From contig CM000436.1 in assembly GCA_000165345.1 (NCBI GenBank), positions 800,001 through 864,000 on the forward strand: a DNA stretch of 64,000 nucleotides. The letters are read 5' to 3'. This document shows, one piece after another, positions 41,869-48,757 of this stretch. The notes under the pieces were generated by a model, which saw only the letters and a list, made by a program, of their open reading frames with translations, had not been told where the DNA came from and ran no database searches. Both the position numbers and the translations under genes were made by a program. Numbering within the stretch: the stretch's first letter is position 1; the number at the start of each line of letters is the position of its first letter.

Positions 41869-43734
41869 CTATTTTTCATCTCTTTGTTGAGCAGCTTTAA
41901 TGAACGCCTCTTCAACTTTTCTTCTTGCATCCGGTTTATCGCCTTTTTCTTCTCTCTGTTGATTTGAATCGTTTGCTACAGATTGAAAAATTGAGCCAAG
42001 TTCTATGAGAGCTAGTGCCCTTTGCTTTCTTGTATTTAGATCAACTCCCATATCTTTCACTAGTTTCTTAGCAACTGTCCTGATTGTATCTTCAATGTCC
42101 ATTATTGTGATCTGAAGCATTGTATCCAATATAAGTGGTAACGTCTCTTCGAACTGCTGTTGTGTTCTTGCTGATTCCTCTGCATCTTGTTCCAAATTAG
42201 ATTCATAGGTGCGTTCATTTTCTGCAGTTCCACTGGATTTTTTTTTAATAGACGACTGCAGACTTTGAGCTGCCATAGCTGTTCTAATTGCAGTAGATGC
42301 CATTTTCCAAGTAGATGCAACATTCCTTGTCTTTGCTTGAAACTTGGCATACTTACCTCCTATTCCAAGAAAGGTGTCAATTTTTCCTAAGTATTGAGAA
42401 CCATAATTTTCATAGCTCCAGCCAATTGCCTCAACCATTGCGTCACAAAACGAATCGTTACATAAACTTTTTGCTTCTTGAGAAATCGATTCTCTCCAAT
42501 TAATAAGAATCTCTGAAGTTTCAATTGGAACTGATTTTTCAGCATCAAACTCTTGCAGTATAGGAGTAATTATCTTTCTCATTTCTATTGCGAGTAAAAT
42601 TGTTCTTTTATTTTGTTCGTTTTCAATTGCTTGCTCCATCTCTATTGAATTTCCAGCACCATTTTGACCATTATTGGTGGAGGCAATTTCAACAAGAGAA
42701 ACCATCTTCAGTTTGCCTACATACTTTTCTAAACTATCAGACCCAAATAAAATTGTGAAAATCAAATTCGAATCAATAACGGGCATATCATAAGTAGCAC
42801 CAATTCCATATTCATCATATCTTTTCCTGCGTTCAGGATCAGCAAGTATTTGATAAGCTTCGCCCAACTTTTGAAATTTATCTTTTGCGTCTGCATCATC
42901 AGGATTTTTATCTGGATGGTACTGCTTTGCCTTCCTGTAATATTGTCGTCGAATTTCATCTGCATCTGCATTTGGCGAAACAGATAACAAATCATAATAA
43001 GTTGTATCTACAACATTTTTTGAATCTAAATTTATTGATTCTTTTTTATCATAATCACTAGCTTCATAATTATCATTTTTTTGTGAATATTTTATTTCCT
43101 TTTCCTTAAGTCGCTGAATTTCATCATCTAACGAATAGTAATATTCAATCCACTGTCTGTTTTTTTTGTCCCATTTCCTCCCCTTATTACTTTCAGTTAT
43201 GGCCTCTGGAGTATTCGCTACTCCCCTCGCCATTTGGTATCCGGCAACTCCAACAGCAGTTACAGGTAATGCAACTGCTGCAACTAAACCAGCGCCCATT
43301 CCTTTGAAAAACCCAGATACACCTTCGGTAGCAGCTCCGACCACAGGTGCGGCGACTAATGTTGCAACACCAGCTGCAACGCCCTTCCCCACTGTCTTCA
43401 TTCCGCTGCTAAACCCTGCCATTGCATCTCTCGGCCGTCTTGTTGAAAACAAGCCACCCAAAACACCTTCATCGCTATATAATAAAGAGTTCATGTCTTC
43501 ACCTGAAATATTCCTAGATCCTGACTGAATAGCTAATTGATACCAAGAAGAAGTTGATTCATCAAATGAAGTACTTCCAGGCTCAATTTTAGAATACCTT
43601 TGGTTATAGGGCAGCTCCTCAATATTTGCCTCGGATTTGGATCTTTCTTCAGGCCTCTCATGCTCGACTATATTCGATGAAGTAGCATCCGACAAGAATG
43701 CATTATCTTTCACATTACTTCGTTCTTGCTCCAT
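41869..43734 (-). CDS. DnaJ (J-domain) protein with Gly/Ala-rich hydrophobic segments
   Basis: The J domain reads DYYDLLSVSPNADADEIRRQYYRKAKQYHPDKNPDDADAKDKFQKLGEAYQILADPERRKRYD (HPD motif). The hydrophobic tract GKGVAAGVATLVAAPVVGAATEG precedes it. Confidence 0.8.
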   Translation of the reverse strand: MEQERSNVKDNAFLSDATSSNIVEHERPEERSKSEANIEELPYNQRYSKIEPGSTSFDESTSSWYQLAIQSGSRNISGEDMNSLLYSDEGVLGGLFSTRRPRDAMAGFSSGMKTVGKGVAAGVATLVAAPVVGAATEGVSGFFKGMGAGLVAAVALPVTAVGVAGYQMARGVANTPEAITESNKGRKWDKKNRQWIEYYYSLDDEIQRLKEKEIKYSQKNDNYEASDYDKKESINLDSKNVVDTTYYDLLSVSPNADADEIRRQYYRKAKQYHPDKNPDDADAKDKFQKLGEAYQILADPERRKRYDEYGIGATYDMPVIDSNLIFTILFGSDSLEKYVGKLKMVSLVEIASTNNGQNGAGNSIEMEQAIENEQNKRTILLAIEMRKIITPILQEFDAEKSVPIETSEILINWRESISQEAKSLCNDSFCDAMVEAIGWSYENYGSQYLGKIDTFLGIGGKYAKFQAKTRNVASTWKMASTAIRTAMAAQSLQSSIKKKSSGTAENERTYESNLEQDAEESARTQQQFEETLPLILDTMLQITIMDIEDTIRTVAKKLVKDMGVDLNTRKQRALALIELGSIFQSVANDSNQQREEKGDKPDARRKVEEAFIKAAQQRDEK

Positions 43735-43907: not shown

Positions 43908-44468
43908 CTAAAGTTTTCTGTTGATAATTGCAATATCGTCTATCGAAAGATCTCGCCCAATTAATAGTCTTTTGCTAATAGCTCTGTGTAAGCTCTATCA
44001 AAAGTTATACAGTAAATTTACATAGAAATAATCAGTAATCGACTTACAGACAACGTAAACGCTTCCCCCCTAGCTCTATCGTTTTGCTCGTCGAGAAGCT
44101 TGAATAAATCCATTAGCCACGTGTTTGGTGATTTTCCTTCATCAATGTGCCTAATGACAATCACATGAAACGTAGAATCTATTAATACTTACTTAATGAA
44201 TCCTAATGGAATTTCTTCTTTTGATAGACTTGAATCCGAAAGAATGCTTTGCGCACTAACTAACAGGTTAATATATTCCTGGCTTAAAACAAAAATGATT
44301 AATTTAAATTTTAAGTAATAAAACTTACACATCGTTTTTCAATTTGTTTGAACTATCTGTATTTTTATGGCTACTAGAGATAACTATTTCGTTAGTAATG
44401 GTTGTTAAGTTTCTTATAATGTTAATGTAGCACTCTAAGAGAGGGTCTATAGATACCTTGTTCTCCAT
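43908..44468 (-). CDS. Mediator complex subunit MED10 (Nut2) homolog, four exons: 44468..44329, 44282..44193, 44150..44048, 43994..43908
   Basis: This gene is absent from the ORF track. Three introns of 46, 42 and 53 nt all carry GTAAGT donors and AG acceptors, and the frame is maintained. The product is MENKVSIDPLLECYINIIRNL...QEYINLLVSAQSILSDSSLSKEEIPLGFIKHIDEGKSPNTWLMDLFKLLDEQNDRARGEAFTLSSLHRAISKRLL.... The segment IPLGFIKHIDEGKSPNTWL matches the MED10 core (VPLEVFEYIDQGRNPQLY). Confidence 0.6.
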
Positions 44469-44563: not shown

Positions 44564-47317
44564 TTATTCAGATATTTTTGATTTAATAAATTTCATAAAG
44601 CGCATAGAATATTTATCTGGTGGAACCGCTGAAATGCCGTTTGATGATCCAATAATGATTGCTTTGTAAAGTCTTTCAAACTTCTTAATGGTGCTCCAGG
44701 TTGAGAAAAAGTCAATAAATCCCAGGTAATAAACTTTCTTTTGATCAGAAGAGAGAATTCCAACGAACTTTCTATTATTCTTATTTTCAATAAGAGACTT
44801 GATGTTCATGGCGTCATCCTGCACATAATGTATTCCAATCAGGAGCGAATAATCCATTATGTTATAAAGTTCAAAAAATTTACAGTCTACTTCTAGTTGC
44901 TTTAGCAAATCTATTTGATCTTGCTGATTAATGTGCAACATTTCCTTATTATTCTTCATGTCCAACTCTTTTAAAGCAATAGTCTTATCTTCCTGAAGAA
45001 TTAAAGGCGTCGACCTTCCAATCCAGCTTCCCTTTATATCGTATCTTCTATGTATTTCAACGGGAGTATGAAAAATATTCTCCATTACAATGAAAAAAAT
45101 TTTGTGTATCTTGCTTTTCCTTAATATTGAATTGCCATTACTCGAAATTTGTTCCCTAATTGTATTGAATGGTTGAAGTAGAGGCTTTTTAAATCTAAGA
45201 GCATGAAGCCCATATATTCTCGTTATTAAACTGTTCTGGTTGCTTTTAATATGGTTAAAATACTTGCTCAATATGCTTCTAAAGAACACTGCCGTCTTTT
45301 TTCCCACAGTTTTTATTAAAAATCTACCGTCTGTAGTATAGTAGAAAAATGCACCAGACTTTCCTTCGCTACATAATTCATTCATTGAAGACAAATTTCC
45401 CAATACCATATTTCCCAATAACTGTTCTGGGCCAACGCTTCTTACATATGATTCAGGAGAAATATTGCATATTTCGCGGATCTTTCTGAATACCATGGGA
45501 TTATAATCAATAAACTGTACAGGCTTCATGAATCCTCTATAATCATTTGACTTTTGAATTAAAACATTTGATTTAGTGTTTGATTCCCTTGAAGTCCTGG
45601 GAATTATAAAAAACTTTTCTTTCATTATAAAGTCATAATCTGCGACATCTCGGTTCGGTTCTGAATAAACTCTCCCAATTGCCAGCCTCATTCCAACCAT
45701 CATATTCAATACTGTATTCCAACTTTCATGGCCAATGTAAACTGCATATCCCTTCGTTATTTTCACTACAGGAACATTTATACCACTTATCGTGGGTGTT
45801 TCCTTTTCAGAATGAGAATGTTTGGACTTTATTGAAGATACATTTGCCCTGGAACCCTTCACTTTAATTTTACTTGATGTCTTTGCCATATTTTGGAATC
45901 CTCTGCTAATATTGCTTCTGCGCCTATAAGTGTGTATCAAGGAGACTCGCTTCCGATTATTAGAACAATAGCTGTTCCTAGTATAATCAAGGGTACTGCT
46001 CGACTTATGCATAAACGTTTTCTTAATCATTTCGCTTGCAGACATACGATGTTTAGTATTCGGAGCAACATTACCTTTATTAATGTACATTTTCCTTCGA
46101 TTATAAACTTTTTTTATTATTCCCAAATTGAAATTGTTATATGTTACGATTTGAGATGGTGGCACCATATTCTGCAAAGAATAGATACTTTTTTTGCAAA
46201 TTGAATCGAGCATCTCAATATTATTATTCAATACACTTTTAAGCAAGAGCATGTCATGAGTAAATATTTTTACTATGCTATTAGTATCAGTAAAATTTTG
46301 AGCTTCAAACATATTTGTGCTTTTATTGATATCAAAAAGCATACAATTTAATAAATTATTTTCATTTGGGCTACGAATCCATTTTTCTAGAGTGTTAAGC
46401 GAATCAGTTGTCTCTTGTTTAATGTTTTTAATGTCCTCTAAAATATTAAAGACCTGTAGTTTCAGTCGAGAAGTAAATTCCTTTTCAATAGACTCGTTAT
46501 ACTCAACTCTATCAATTGGTTGCCTATTAAAAATATTAATTCCCTCGAATATTAACGGCGATTTCCTATTTTCAATATCTAAGTCATAAGATTCAAGAAT
46601 ATTCGGGGTTATTATTCCAAAAAATGAGAGAAACTCTGGGGAGTCTTGAATAGCCGCTTTATAACTTTCAAAGTAGATTTTGGGTTCATTTTGTTCATCT
46701 TTCACTGTTGAATAGTCGTTGAAAAAATTTTTAATTTCTTGATCCGAGAAATTTAATATTTGCGGCCCAACAAGCATATATCTAGCACTATCAATTGCTC
46801 TAATAGATTTTAATAACTTCTCAAAGGTGATCCCATCACTCAAATTCATATAATTTTCTCCCTTGATTACCCTGTAGGAAAACCTTGCCTTTTCATCGAA
46901 ATTATCAGAAATCATTATCGCTAGTGCTCTACCAAACTCGTAAAAATCAAGCAAGTTATTGTTATCAGTGTCCATCGCGTTAAAAATCATTTGAGAAAGA
47001 AGCCCATCATCTAATAGCCCCAAAACGATTCTAAACCTCCGAATATCCATGAATCCTAGTGTGTGATGTCGAGATAAAATCAATTCAAATTTATTTTGGC
47101 ATTTAATATATATAAATATATATCATTATAGTTACGAAATACTAATATTAAAGAGTTAATAATATAACTTACCATTATCTGAGTTTGAGATAAATGTATT
47201 GTAAAAATCCCTAATTTGCTTTGTGGATAGGTTTGTCTCATTTTGGATTTTTGTAAAAATATCTTGTTTTAATTTGAAACTTGAACATTTCCTAAAGAAA
47301 ATTTTGATTTTATGCAT
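44564..47317 (-). CDS. Phosphatidylinositol-4-phosphate 5-kinase (PIP5K) fused to an N-terminal EF-hand/neuronal-calcium-sensor-like domain. Two exons: 47317..47173 and 47055..44564, with the intron at 47056..47172.
   Basis: The PIPK catalytic core reads GKSGAFFYYTTDGRFLIKTV...MDYSLLIGIH...LGFIDFFSTW. The upstream exon encodes MHKIKIFFRKCSSFKLKQDIFTKIQNETNLSTKQIRDFYNTFISNSDN and ends at AATG|GTAAGT. A 117-nt intron ends in CACTAG and joins in frame to GFMDIRRFRIV...DTDNNNLLDFYEF (EF-hand loop). The NCS-PIP5K fusion is the architecture described for apicomplexan PIP5K. Confidence 0.8.
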
Positions 47318-47562
47318 TTGTTCAAATAATAGTTACTATATATAGCATATCAAAAATCGAATGTATAACTTTCGATCAAACAGAATTATTAGATATAAAT
47401 CAATACAAGTAAAAGATATTTGAAACTCATTGCGCGGGAGAAAAGCTCAGAAACATGTAAATATTTCGAGAAATTAAGAGAAAATGACAAACAATTATTT
47501 AAGTTAATAGTAGATATGCTACATCAAAATTTGTCACATTGAGTTCAAGTATATCACAATAG

Positions 47563-48757
47563 TTACTTTGTGTCATATCTGTTCGTAAGTGACGTTCTCT
47601 CTTCCTGAATTGTTTTGGATTTGTTAAATTGAACTGGTTTTTTACTTGCAATAATATGGTACTGGCCTTCGCCTCTTATCATAGCGTTTAGTGGTATCCT
47701 CACGGTTTGACTATTTACAAGCCACATTAGAGCTCTTCCAATGTAACTTGAAGAACTTTTGGAATTAACCTAATTTTCATTAGTTAAAAAAAACATGTTT
47801 ATGTAATGACTTACCTTGGATAAAAAAGGCTCTACTTCCGTCTTCAAAGAATAAATGACGTTGGTAGTAATATTGAATTGCTTAATAATTTGGAATCCAG
47901 TATTTGCAATTGTATCCTAATCTAGTATTGAATGAAGATTCCTTAATATTTTGCAAGCTTACCTTTATATCTGGCCAGGCAATTGTGGGCGAAATATCTG
48001 CGAAGAGCATCATTCCACCTGGTTTAAGTAAGTCAAAAACTCCCTTTACAAACTTGTCAAAATTTGGATAACAGTGAGCGGACTCAACATTCAACACAAT
48101 GTCAAAAGATTCAGGCGCAAAGTAATTTTCAAGTTCCATACTGCTTCCAACATAAAATACTTTATTTCCAGCAGGAATCAAATCATTCCTATATATTTGT
48201 CTGCATAATTCAATCCCCTGATCACTAATATCAATCCCAGCATAAGACATCGGTTCAGCAACACTGCAAACTACAACCGAGCCTCCCCCTCTTCCGCAGC
48301 CTACCTCTAAGATGGATTTACCTTTGAAGTCATCATCATAAGTAGATAGAACTGCGGTATAAAGCTGCACTGAGTTCCAAACATCATTAAAGTTTGGCGG
48401 GGATTCTTTCTTTAACTTTTCCAATTTAGACTCGATAAATTTATCTAGCTCCGAATTTTCAGGAGGGCTATGAGGAGTTTTAATTGCATAGCCATAGTTC
48501 ATAAATGAGACATCAATGTTAGAAGTGTACTGTAACTTTGTAAATAGTGAATTGCAAGCATTATAACAAAATCTCCAAAATGACGGAGCAATGTTCAATA
48601 ACGACTTAAGGTGCCAATAAGTTAGCCAAACGAAGGTTAGTATTGAATCAATTACTGTAAGTATTTTCATTTCTCCTAAAGCCTTAATATCTGAGTAAAT
48701 AATTATTAAAATTGATTCTTTACCAAAAAAAAATGAATGTAAATGAAATATCCTCAC
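47563..48757 (-). CDS. SAM-dependent methyltransferase of bacterial (actinobacterial lipid/polyketide O-methyltransferase-like) type with an N-terminal transmembrane segment. Three-exon model: 48757 (or first ATG at 48670)..47963, 47881..47815, 47732..47563.
   Basis: Motif I reads ILEVGCGRGGGSVVV and the post-II/III region reads DIVLNVESAHCYPNFDKFVKGVFDLLKPGGMMLFADI. The hydrophobic N-terminus is KILTVIDSILTFVWLTYW. The track ORF stops at 47882 just after AAG|GTAAGC. Splicing an 81-nt intron to CAATTC... gives QFNITTNVIYSLKTEVEPFLFQ. That exon ends at G|GTAAGT, and an 82-nt intron joins to ALMWLVNSQTVRIPLNAMIRGEGQYHIIASKK...*. The frame stays open across both junctions, and the spliced C-terminus resembles the C-termini of this MTase class. 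Confidence 0.5.

What the first reader, a model, noticed from the sequence alone, without database searches (positions are those of the whole stretch)
44564..47317. PIP5K carries an upstream exon completing an N-terminal EF-hand/NCS-like calcium sensor domain
The track ORF starts at an internal Met. A GTAAGT donor at 47172 and a CTAG acceptor at 47056 add a 48-codon exon, and that exon has the hallmarks of neuronal-calcium-sensor N-termini (KQIRDFYNTFISNSDNG). The next exon contains a canonical EF-hand loop (DTDNNNLLDFYEF). A Ca2+-sensor-PIP5K fusion is the lineage-specific architecture reported for apicomplexan PIP5K and is absent from hosts.
Basis: partly seen in the sequence, partly recalled or inferred. 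Interest (0 to 1): 0.55.

Follow-up and report, generated by a model that had tools for sequence, protein, structure and literature searches.

The report
Cryptosporidium PIP5K with NCS-like N-terminus

Summary
On the minus strand there is an ATG at 47317, a G|GTAAGT donor at 47172 and a CTAG| acceptor at 47056. These join a 145-nt exon (48 codons plus 1 nt, phase 1) in frame to the long ORF across a 117-nt, 20% GC intron.

- **Already annotated:** the 878-aa product is 100% identical over its full length to C. parvum QOY40092.1 and WRK34090.1. The old Iowa II model (XP_001388435.1, 828 aa) starts at the internal Met.
- **Conserved:** exon 1, the donor position and the intron phase are the same in eight Cryptosporidium species (introns 81-245 nt). 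Exon-1 dN/dS is about 0.13.
- **NCS homology:** residues 12-190 align along their length, ungapped across the junction, with frequenin/NCS-1 (E 1.4e-11 with exon 1, 2.9e-5 without). A moderate-confidence AF2 model matches NCS-1 structures.
- **Kinase:** the C-terminus is a type I PIP5K (Pfam E 4.5e-74).

This is the Cryptosporidium ortholog of PfPIP5K/NCS (Leber 2009), a group already reported across apicomplexans and ciliates.

Caveats: only EF2 (DTDNNNLLDFYE) keeps canonical Ca2+ ligands. EF1, EF3 and EF4 are degenerate, Pfam EF-hand hits fall below threshold, and there is no myristoylation Gly2. Ca2+ sensing is therefore inferred, not shown.

Verdict: correct, already known, low interest.

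The parts
47173..47317 (-). Exon 1 (145 nt; M1 to N48 plus the first base of the Gly49 codon). It encodes a basic N-terminus and the entering helix of EF-hand 1 (KLKQDIFTKIQNETNLSTKQIRDFYNTFISNSDN).
   Evidence: for the sequence. Conserved in 8 species with dN/dS about 0.13. Aligns to frequenin-2 residues 5-41. AF2 places a helix at residues 32-44.
47056..47172 (-). Intron, 117 nt, GTAAGT...CTAG, phase 1, 19.7% GC. It splits the Gly codon at position 6 of the EF1 loop.
   Evidence: Position and phase are conserved while length varies from 81 to 245 nt in 8 species. The product of this splice is identical to QOY40092.1.
44564..47055 (-). Exon 2 (residues 49-878 plus the stop TAA at 44566-44564).
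47048..47050 (-). Internal ATG (Met51), used as the start codon by the old 828-aa Iowa II model XP_001388435.1/EAZ51475.1.
   Evidence: P0012, 828 aa, starts MDIRRF.
46601..47284 (-). NCS-like four-EF-hand domain (residues about 12-200; the span includes the intron).
   Evidence: phmmer and hmmsearch against PDB: frequenin-2 E 1.4e-11 and 6.7e-12, then NCS-1, hippocalcin and others. AF2 plus Foldseek: TM-score normalised to the target 0.62-0.71 against NCS-1.
46937..46972 (-). EF-hand 2 loop, DTDNNNLLDFYE (residues 77-88). It is the only loop with canonical Ca2+ ligands (D1, D3, N5, D9, E12).
   Evidence: Pfam EF-hand_1 at residues 71-94, 21.3 bits, E 1.8e-4, below the gathering score. The ligand positions are conserved in all Cryptosporidium species and in the Plasmodium, Besnoitia, Eimeria, Theileria and Babesia orthologs.
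44579..45766 (-). PIP5K catalytic region. Homology runs from about residue 479, and the Pfam PF01504 match covers residues 603-874 (45394..44579). Motifs present: GKSGAFF, YDIKGS, MDYSLLIGIH, GFIDFF and the activation loop KKFERLYKA.
   Evidence: Pfam E 4.5e-74. The closest solved structure is zebrafish PIP5K type I alpha, 4tz7/5e3s, E 1.4e-29, with FER aligned to LEH in the activation loop.

Best explanation
The region is the Cryptosporidium parvum ortholog of the alveolate 'PIP5K/NCS' enzyme. It is a two-exon gene on the minus strand (exon 1 47317-47173, 117-nt intron, exon 2 47055-44564) encoding an 878-aa protein.

Shown here:
- The splice restores a complete N-terminal four-EF-hand module of the neuronal-calcium-sensor fold.
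- Exon 1 supplies the N-terminal helix and the entering helix of EF1. This pairs with EF2, the only loop that keeps canonical Ca2+ ligands.
- A roughly 270-residue low-complexity linker follows, then a type I PI4P 5-kinase domain with intact catalytic motifs and the type I activation-loop Glu.

Inferred from work on the Plasmodium ortholog and from NCS biology:
- The kinase makes PI(4,5)P2 from PI4P.
- Ca2+ binding at EF2 changes the conformation of the N-terminal module and tunes kinase activity or membrane association.
- This would couple PI(4,5)P2 supply to the PI-PLC/IP3/Ca2+ loop that drives apicomplexan secretion and motility, with Arf1 as an additional activator.

The confidence figure refers to the gene model and domain identity. 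The Ca2+-regulation step on its own I put at about 0.4-0.5.
For: - **Gene model:** the sequence supports it. The product is 100% identical and full length to QOY40092.1 and WRK34090.1, and the C. hominis and C. meleagridis models are also 878 aa. The CpIA annotation's introns are stated to be 100% RNA-seq supported.
- **Conservation:** exon, phase and junction are conserved in 8 species, with dN/dS about 0.13.
- **NCS homology:** it spans the junction, and exon 1 adds about 20 bits (against 39). AF2 and Foldseek match NCS-1.
- **Orthologs:** Plasmodium ovale, Besnoitia, Eimeria, Theileria and Babesia orthologs carry the same N-terminal domain starting at HMM position about 15-20, which includes the exon-1 part.
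- **Kinase:** PIP5K Pfam E 4.5e-74 and a type I activation loop.
- **Literature:** PfPIP5K/NCS is a PI4P 5-kinase activated by Arf1, with Ca2+ regulation proposed.
Against: - No transcript data could be examined directly here.
- Pfam EF-hand hits are below the gathering thresholds.
- EF1 has Arg at loop position 12. EF3 has an indel and Lys at position 12. EF4 has Pro at position 6 and Ser at position 12. At most one Ca2+ site is therefore plausible (read from the alignments).
- There is no Gly2, so no Ca2+-myristoyl switch.
- According to the 2013 paper, Ca2+ regulation of any PIP5K/NCS had not been directly tested (PMC3823935).
- The AF2 model has only moderate confidence (pLDDT 62).
- Exon 1 alone is not significant against PDB (E 0.28).
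Confidence: 0.9

Rival explanations
1. The exon and the NCS fold are real, but the domain is a degenerate pseudo-sensor that no longer responds to Ca2+. It would instead act as a constitutive protein-interaction, autoinhibitory or membrane-targeting module, for example for Arf1 or for membranes through the basic N-terminus MHKIKIFFRK.
For: Three of the four EF loops are non-canonical, and EF3 carries lineage-variable insertions of 10 to about 100 residues in C. serpentis, Besnoitia and Eimeria. In every named apicomplexan ortholog tested, Pfam finds only a sub-threshold EF2 hit of 17-21 bits. The stramenopile homolog scores 55 bits on EF3/EF4. There is no myristoylation site. Position 6 of the EF2 loop is Asn, not Gly.
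Against: The EF2 ligand positions 1, 3, 5, 9 and 12 are conserved as D, D/N, N/D, D/S/N and E across Cryptosporidium, Plasmodium, Besnoitia, Eimeria, Theileria and Babesia. That conservation would not be expected if Ca2+ binding were dispensable. A single functional EF-hand paired with a non-binding partner is known in other EF-hand proteins (general knowledge).
Confidence: 0.4
2. The old single-exon model is the real product: translation starts at Met51 (ATG 47050), and the upstream ORF plus GT...AG is coincidental or is only 5' UTR.
For: Several deposited annotations still use it, at 828-831 aa: XP_001388435.1, WKS79587.1, KAL5367068.1, C. tyzzeri TRY50214.1, C. ubiquitum, C. bovis and chipmunk genotype I. 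No RNA-seq data were inspected here.
Against: Exon 1 is kept open, under purifying selection and in the same phase in 8 species, including those annotated without it. It aligns residue for residue with the N-terminus of NCS proteins and of other apicomplexan PIP5Ks. Without it EF2 has no partner EF-hand. Evidence-based reannotations adopted the spliced model.
Confidence: 0.03
3. Both isoforms are made, through an alternative promoter or intron retention. This would give a full-length sensor-kinase and an N-terminally truncated kinase lacking the EF1 entering helix, possibly in different life-cycle stages.
For: Met51 lies immediately after the acceptor and is conserved as Met in several intestinal species (FMDIRRF, FMNIRRF). 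Cryptosporidium has a few reported alternatively spliced genes.
Against: Met51 is not conserved: C. felis has FIDIK and C. serpentis has FIGLD, so an internal start cannot be a conserved feature of the genus. There is no positive evidence for a second transcript.
Confidence: 0.07

Closest known systems
PfPIP5K/NCS (Plasmodium falciparum PF3D7_0110600; Leber et al. 2009) and its orthologs, including P. berghei PBANKA_020310 and Toxoplasma TgPI4P5KA TGME49_230490
   Same: One polypeptide with an N-terminal NCS-like EF-hand domain and a C-terminal type I PI4P 5-kinase. The N-terminal domains of the P. ovale, Besnoitia, Eimeria, Theileria and Babesia orthologs align with the Cryptosporidium one from the exon-1-encoded helix onward. 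They share a canonical EF2 and degenerate EF3/EF4.
   Different: The Cryptosporidium protein is much shorter (878 aa against 1389-1470 aa in Plasmodium and Besnoitia) because the linker and the EF3 insertion are short. No biochemistry exists for it, so Arf1 activation and substrate specificity have not been tested.
Neuronal calcium sensor family (NCS-1/frequenin, hippocalcin, recoverin, KChIPs)
   Same: Four-EF-hand fold of about 190 residues. The alignment covers NCS residues 4/5 to about 176. EF1 is non-functional. The motif x-F-T/S-x-K/E-E-I-x-x-W/F-Y/H-x-x-F precedes EF1.
   Different: It is fused to a kinase rather than free-standing. It has no N-myristoylation Gly2. The EF1 loop has SDNG in place of CPxG. 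Only EF2 is canonical, whereas NCS proteins bind Ca2+ at EF2 and EF3, with or without EF4. Identity is 18-24%.
Ciliate PIPK1 group (Tetrahymena TtPIPK1a-d, Paramecium) and EF-hand-PIP5K proteins of labyrinthulomycetes (Mucochytrium quahogii P0060)
   Same: EF-hand/NCS-like N-terminus plus a type I-like PIP5K. These proteins rank among the closest PIP5K relatives of the Cryptosporidium kinase.
   Different: In the thraustochytrid and related environmental homologs, EF3 and EF4 are fully canonical (Pfam EF-hand_7 at 45-55 bits) and the match to frequenin is much stronger (E 1.3e-24). No ciliate sequences were examined here.
Metazoan type I PIP5K (zebrafish/human PIP5K1A, PDB 4tz7, 5e3s)
   Same: The catalytic core and the activation-loop Glu (KKFERLYKA against KKLEHSWKA) are shared. 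It is the best solved-structure match, E 1.4e-29.
   Different: Host enzymes have no EF-hand domain. The parasite kinase has extra loops (for example NMVLGNLSSMN and the insert around residues 670-700), seen as gaps.

Membership tests
Apicomplexan/alveolate PIP5K/NCS (PfPIP5K/NCS type) | NCS-like EF-hand domain and PIP5K catalytic domain on one polypeptide, with the NCS domain N-terminal | tested here: met
   Residues 12-190 match NCS and residues 603-874 match PF01504. They lie in a single spliced ORF identical to QOY40092.1.
Apicomplexan/alveolate PIP5K/NCS (PfPIP5K/NCS type) | Orthology with the Plasmodium and coccidian enzymes: these are the closest relatives and they align over both domains | tested here: met
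   In the exhaustive HMMER search the top non-Cryptosporidium hits include Besnoitia, Eimeria, P. ovale, Theileria and Babesia proteins. All match the N-terminal-domain HMM at E 1e-18 to 1e-28. No formal phylogeny was made.
Apicomplexan/alveolate PIP5K/NCS (PfPIP5K/NCS type) | PI4P 5-kinase activity stimulated by Arf1 (Leber 2009) | not testable with these tools
   This is a biochemical property, cited.
Type I PIP5K (Pfam PF01504) | Profile match above the gathering score, with intact catalytic motifs | tested here: met
   249.7 bits against a cut-off of 27. GKSGAFF, YDIKGS, MDYSLLIGIH and GFIDFF are all present.
Type I PIP5K (Pfam PF01504) | Activation-loop Glu that specifies PI4P (type I) rather than the Ala of type II PIP4K (Kunz et al. 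2002, from my own knowledge) | tested here: met
   KKFERLYKA aligns to KKLEHSWKA of zebrafish PIP5K1A (domain 3).
Neuronal calcium sensor (NCS) family | Four EF-hand helix-loop-helix units in a compact fold of about 190 residues | tested here: met
   AF2 gives four helix pairs. Foldseek's top hits are NCS-1/Frq2, with about 183 aligned columns and TM-score normalised to the target of 0.62-0.71. Model confidence is only moderate (pLDDT 62).
Neuronal calcium sensor (NCS) family | EF1 unable to bind Ca2+ because of the Cys-Pro (CPxG) substitution | tested here: inconclusive
   The EF1 loop SNSDNGFMDIRR is non-canonical, with Arg at position 12, so it is probably non-binding as in NCS proteins. 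The CPxG signature itself is absent, with SDNG in its place.
Neuronal calcium sensor (NCS) family | N-terminal myristoylation consensus (Met-Gly-x-x-x-Ser/Thr) | tested here: not met
   The N-terminus is MHKIKI. All Cryptosporidium orthologs also lack Gly2.
Neuronal calcium sensor (NCS) family | Two or three functional Ca2+ sites (EF2, EF3, with or without EF4) | tested here: not met
   Only EF2 (DTDNNNLLDFYE) has canonical ligands, and EF3 and EF4 are degenerate. This is judged from sequence only. Actual Ca2+ binding cannot be tested here.

The most novel reading that the evidence does not exclude
The NCS-PIP5K fusion may be neither apicomplexan-specific nor alveolate-specific, as the literature states. 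It may be an older invention, at least at the level of the SAR clade. Thraustochytrid stramenopiles carry it with fully canonical EF3/EF4. Apicomplexans, including Cryptosporidium, then lost Ca2+ ligands in EF3/EF4 and kept a single conserved site in EF2. That would imply a rewired, or much less cooperative, Ca2+ response in the parasite enzymes.
Probability: 0.45. Interest if true: 0.3.

Novelty: already known. Interest (0 to 1): 0.12.

Why it matters
The enzyme itself matters. PI(4,5)P2 synthesis feeds the PI-PLC/IP3/Ca2+ signalling that controls apicomplexan egress, motility and invasion. The P. berghei ortholog could not be deleted, which suggests it is essential. Mammalian type I PIP5Ks have no EF-hand domain (general knowledge, not searched for here).

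The finding adds nothing to public knowledge. The 878-aa spliced model has been in GenBank since the 2015 and 2022 reannotations, and the domain fusion was published in 2009.

Its practical value is as a curation flag. Several current Cryptosporidium annotations still lack exon 1: C. ubiquitum, C. bovis, chipmunk genotype I, C. tyzzeri and some C. parvum and C. hominis assemblies. One C. meleagridis model fuses the gene to its neighbour. Domain-based comparisons that use those proteomes would miss or misread the N-terminal domain.

Tried and rejected
- **Alignment query to the large protein database:** The search for homologous proteins with the N-terminal alignment A1 returned nothing, not even the Cryptosporidium proteins themselves. 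I treat this as a tool failure, not as evidence.
- **Exon 1 alone against PDB:** the only hit was frequenin-2 residues 5-41, at E 0.28. It is in the expected position but not significant on its own.
- **Exon-1-only HMM against non-Cryptosporidium PIP5Ks:** scores were at most 11 bits. Three hits had E <= 0.01, against none in the reversed-sequence control, and the hits land at the orthologs' N-termini. This is weak supporting evidence only.
- **Pfam EF-hand models:** all are below the gathering score, so there is no curated-threshold EF-hand call.
- **Alternative acceptors:** several downstream in-frame AGs keep an ORF longer than 800 aa, but they delete conserved residues. Only the first gives the G-[FV]-[MI] junction shared by all species and collinear with NCS.
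- **Intron read-through:** rejected, because a stop follows after 4 codons.
- **TTG-start 839-aa ORF (47083):** this is a product of prokaryote-style ORF calling, as are Logan members P0021 and P0022.
- **Further upstream exon:** rejected. The NCS alignment already starts at NCS residue 4-5, the upstream methyltransferase gene ends at 47563, and in-frame stops precede the ATG.
Full report
**What is in the sequence**

The window is about 30% GC. The finding's gene lies on the minus strand.

- The ATG at 47317 is the first Met after in-frame stops 7-8 codons upstream.
- The reading frame runs 48 codons to ...SDN, followed by G|GTAAGT, with the GT at 47172-47171.
- Reading on into the intron hits a stop after four codons.
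- At 47059-47056 there is CTAG|, and the long ORF frame continues from 47055.
- Joining 47173 to 47055 recreates a Gly codon (G+GA) and keeps the frame.
- The intron is 117 nt and 19.7% GC. The product is 878 aa.

The intron is typical for C. parvum, where the mean is 99 nt and 22% GC (PMC4637869).

**Identity of the locus and state of annotation**

The spliced protein is 100% identical over 100% of its length to 'Phosphatidylinositol-4-phosphate 5-kinase [Cryptosporidium parvum]', QOY40092.1 (CPATCC_004171), and to WRK34090.1. The same 878-aa model exists for C. hominis (CUV07880.1, PPS97963.1, OLQ17342.1) and C. meleagridis (KAK9171021.1).

The original Iowa II model, XP_001388435.1/EAZ51475.1, is 828 aa and starts at the internal Met51 (MDIRRF...).

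The reannotation papers give the transcript basis for the newer models. Isaza et al. 2015 used cDNA and RNA-seq. Baptista et al. 2022 state that the introns of the IOWA-ATCC annotation are 100% supported by RNA-seq. I could not inspect reads myself, so transcript support is indirect.

**Comparative test of the exon**

I fetched the orthologous loci from seven other species: C. ubiquitum, C. bovis, chipmunk genotype I, C. canis, C. felis, C. ryanae and the gastric species C. serpentis.

- All seven contain an open exon 1 of 145 nt (148 nt in C. serpentis).
- Each ends in G|GTAAG inside the same Gly codon, in phase 1.
- In each, the first acceptor restores the junction G-[FV]-[MI]...
- Intron lengths differ: 120, 237, 113, 96, 123, 245 and 81 nt, against 117 in the window. 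Several are not multiples of three.
- Exon-1 dN/dS against C. parvum is 0.12-0.13 for the three comparisons in which dS is not saturated.
- The intron is less conserved than either flanking exon.

Three of these species (C. ubiquitum, C. bovis, chipmunk genotype I) are annotated without exon 1 although the exon is present in their DNA.

**What the exon contributes**

- With exon 1, residues 13-188 align with Drosophila frequenin-2 residues 5-176 (47.7 bits, E 1.4e-11) and with NCS-1 (36 bits, E 5e-8). The alignment crosses the splice junction without a gap, and the few gaps lie further downstream.
- A five-species profile gives the same picture. NCS family members fill the top of the list and the alignments start at NCS residue 4.
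- Starting at Met51 instead, the scores fall to 27.2 and 18.7 bits, and the best hit becomes generic calcineurin B.
- Exon 1 alone hits only frequenin-2 residues 5-41, at a non-significant E of 0.28.
- An AlphaFold2 model of residues 1-208 has moderate confidence (pLDDT 62, pTM 0.55). It shows four helix-loop-helix units.
- In that model the exon-1 helix 32-44 is the entering helix of EF1, and the splice junction sits in the EF1 loop.
- Foldseek's top roughly 20 PDB hits are NCS-1/frequenin structures, with about 183 aligned columns and TM-score normalised to the target of 0.62-0.71.

Without exon 1, EF2 would have no partner hand.

**EF-hand quality**

Pfam finds only EF2 (residues 71-94), at 18.7-21.3 bits. 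That is below the gathering score of 25.4. I read the four loops from the alignments:

| Loop | Sequence | Assessment |
|---|---|---|
| EF1 | SNSDNGFMDIRR | Arg at position 12, non-canonical |
| EF2 | DTDNNNLLDFYE | Canonical ligands (D1, D3, N5, D9, E12); conserved in all Cryptosporidium species and in the Plasmodium, Besnoitia, Eimeria, Theileria and Babesia orthologs |
| EF3 | not a recognisable 12-residue loop | Indel and Lys at position 12; carries insertions in several lineages |
| EF4 | DEQNEPKIYFES | Pro at position 6 and Ser at position 12 |

There is no Gly2, so the Ca2+-myristoyl switch of NCS proteins cannot operate. The domain is NCS-like in fold and ancestry, but it fails several defining features of bona fide NCS proteins. 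Ca2+ sensing remains an inference.

**The kinase**

PF01504 matches residues 603-874 at E 4.5e-74. Homology to other PIP5Ks starts at about residue 479. The closest solved structure is zebrafish type I PIP5K alpha (E 1.4e-29). The activation-loop segment KKFERLYKA aligns with KKLEHSWKA and keeps the Glu associated with PI4P specificity. The link between that Glu and specificity comes from my own knowledge of Kunz et al. 2002.

**Relation to known biology**

- The N-terminal NCS-like plus C-terminal type I PIP5K architecture was described for P. falciparum PF3D7_0110600 by Leber et al. 2009. That enzyme phosphorylates PI4P and is activated by Arf1, and Ca2+ regulation was proposed but not tested.
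- Leondaritis et al. 2013 report relatives in all sequenced apicomplexan genomes and in ciliates.
- In an exhaustive HMMER search, the nearest non-Cryptosporidium relatives include Besnoitia, Eimeria, Plasmodium ovale, Theileria and Babesia proteins.
- All of these match an HMM of the Cryptosporidium N-terminal domain from position about 15-20 onward, which includes the exon-1-encoded part.

**Beyond the finding**

Among the PIP5K relatives that carry an NCS-like N-terminus is a protein from the thraustochytrid Mucochytrium quahogii, a stramenopile.

- Its N-terminal domain matches frequenin-2 at E 1.3e-24 over the full length.
- Its EF3/EF4 pair is fully canonical (EF-hand_7 at 55.6 bits).
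- Further EF-hand plus PIP5K relatives turned up in MMETSP, EukProt, JGI and Logan data, most of them from unidentified organisms.

By contrast, every named apicomplexan ortholog I scanned shows only a sub-threshold EF2 hit. This suggests the fusion is older than the alveolates and that apicomplexans lost EF3/EF4. No phylogeny was made and the stramenopile evidence comes from transcriptomes, so I report it only as a lead.

**Verdict**

Novelty: already known. Interest is low. The useful by-product is a list of Cryptosporidium annotations that still lack exon 1 or mis-join the gene.

Noticed in passing
L001 1231-1375 (C. ubiquitum LRBP01000014.1); L002 1114-1258 (C. bovis VHIT02000040.1); L003 1238-1382 (Cryptosporidium sp. 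chipmunk genotype I SCFC02000018.1): The deposited PIP5K models of these species (828-831 aa) start at or next to the internal Met. The conserved exon 1 and the GTAAG donor are present upstream in their DNA. C. tyzzeri TRY50214.1 and some C. parvum and C. hominis assemblies (WKS79587.1, KAL5367068.1, KAL3126556.1) also carry the 828-aa model.
   Followed up: yes
P0018 (C. meleagridis POM84839.1, 1155 aa); corresponds to window 44564-48669: This is a chimeric gene model. The upstream methyltransferase (residues 1-333) is spliced directly onto the PIP5K at residue 57, skipping exon 1 and the intergenic region.
   Followed up: yes
P0060 (Mucochytrium quahogii, MMETSP0098), P0068, P0076, P0193-P0198: NCS-like plus PIP5K fusion proteins occur outside alveolates, in a thraustochytrid stramenopile and in related, mostly unidentified sequences. 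Their EF3/EF4 hands are fully canonical and the match to frequenin is strong (E 1.3e-24). The literature calls the architecture apicomplexan- or alveolate-specific.
   Followed up: partly
Alignment of N-terminal domains; P0025, P0037, P0065, P0050, P0057: In the apicomplexan orthologs only EF2 keeps canonical ligands. EF3 is interrupted by lineage-specific insertions, of about 100 residues in Eimeria and Besnoitia and 10 residues in C. serpentis. Several orthologs have Cys-rich N-termini (for example Eimeria ...GSCCG), which might be acylation sites. C. parvum has a basic N-terminus with a single Cys11.
   Followed up: partly
window 47563-48669 (- strand): The upstream neighbour is a SAM-dependent methyltransferase (Methyltransf_11/25 hits in the orthologous loci). 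It is itself multi-exon. A GTAAGC donor at 47962 pairs with an acceptor AG at 47918-47917, giving a 46-nt intron. A second GTAAGT donor follows ...EPFLSK. The last exon ends at the stop at 47563, only about 245 nt upstream of the PIP5K ATG.
   Followed up: partly
window 44330-44468 (- strand) and downstream: The downstream neighbour starts about 95 nt after the PIP5K stop (MENKVSIDPLLECY...) and runs into a GTAAGT about 47 codons in. The orthologous loci annotate a small multi-exon Med10 (PF09748) gene here, followed by a DnaJ/DnaJ-X gene (window ORF 41869-43734). Gene order (methyltransferase, PIP5K, Med10, DnaJ) is conserved in the six loci where Med10 is annotated (no hit on record in C. 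felis, no gene called in chipmunk genotype I).
   Followed up: no
tool behaviour: the search for homologous proteins, when given the five-sequence alignment A1 as the query, returned no hit at all. Even the source Cryptosporidium proteins were missing, although the single-sequence query found them. A null result from that mode should not be read as absence.
   Followed up: no
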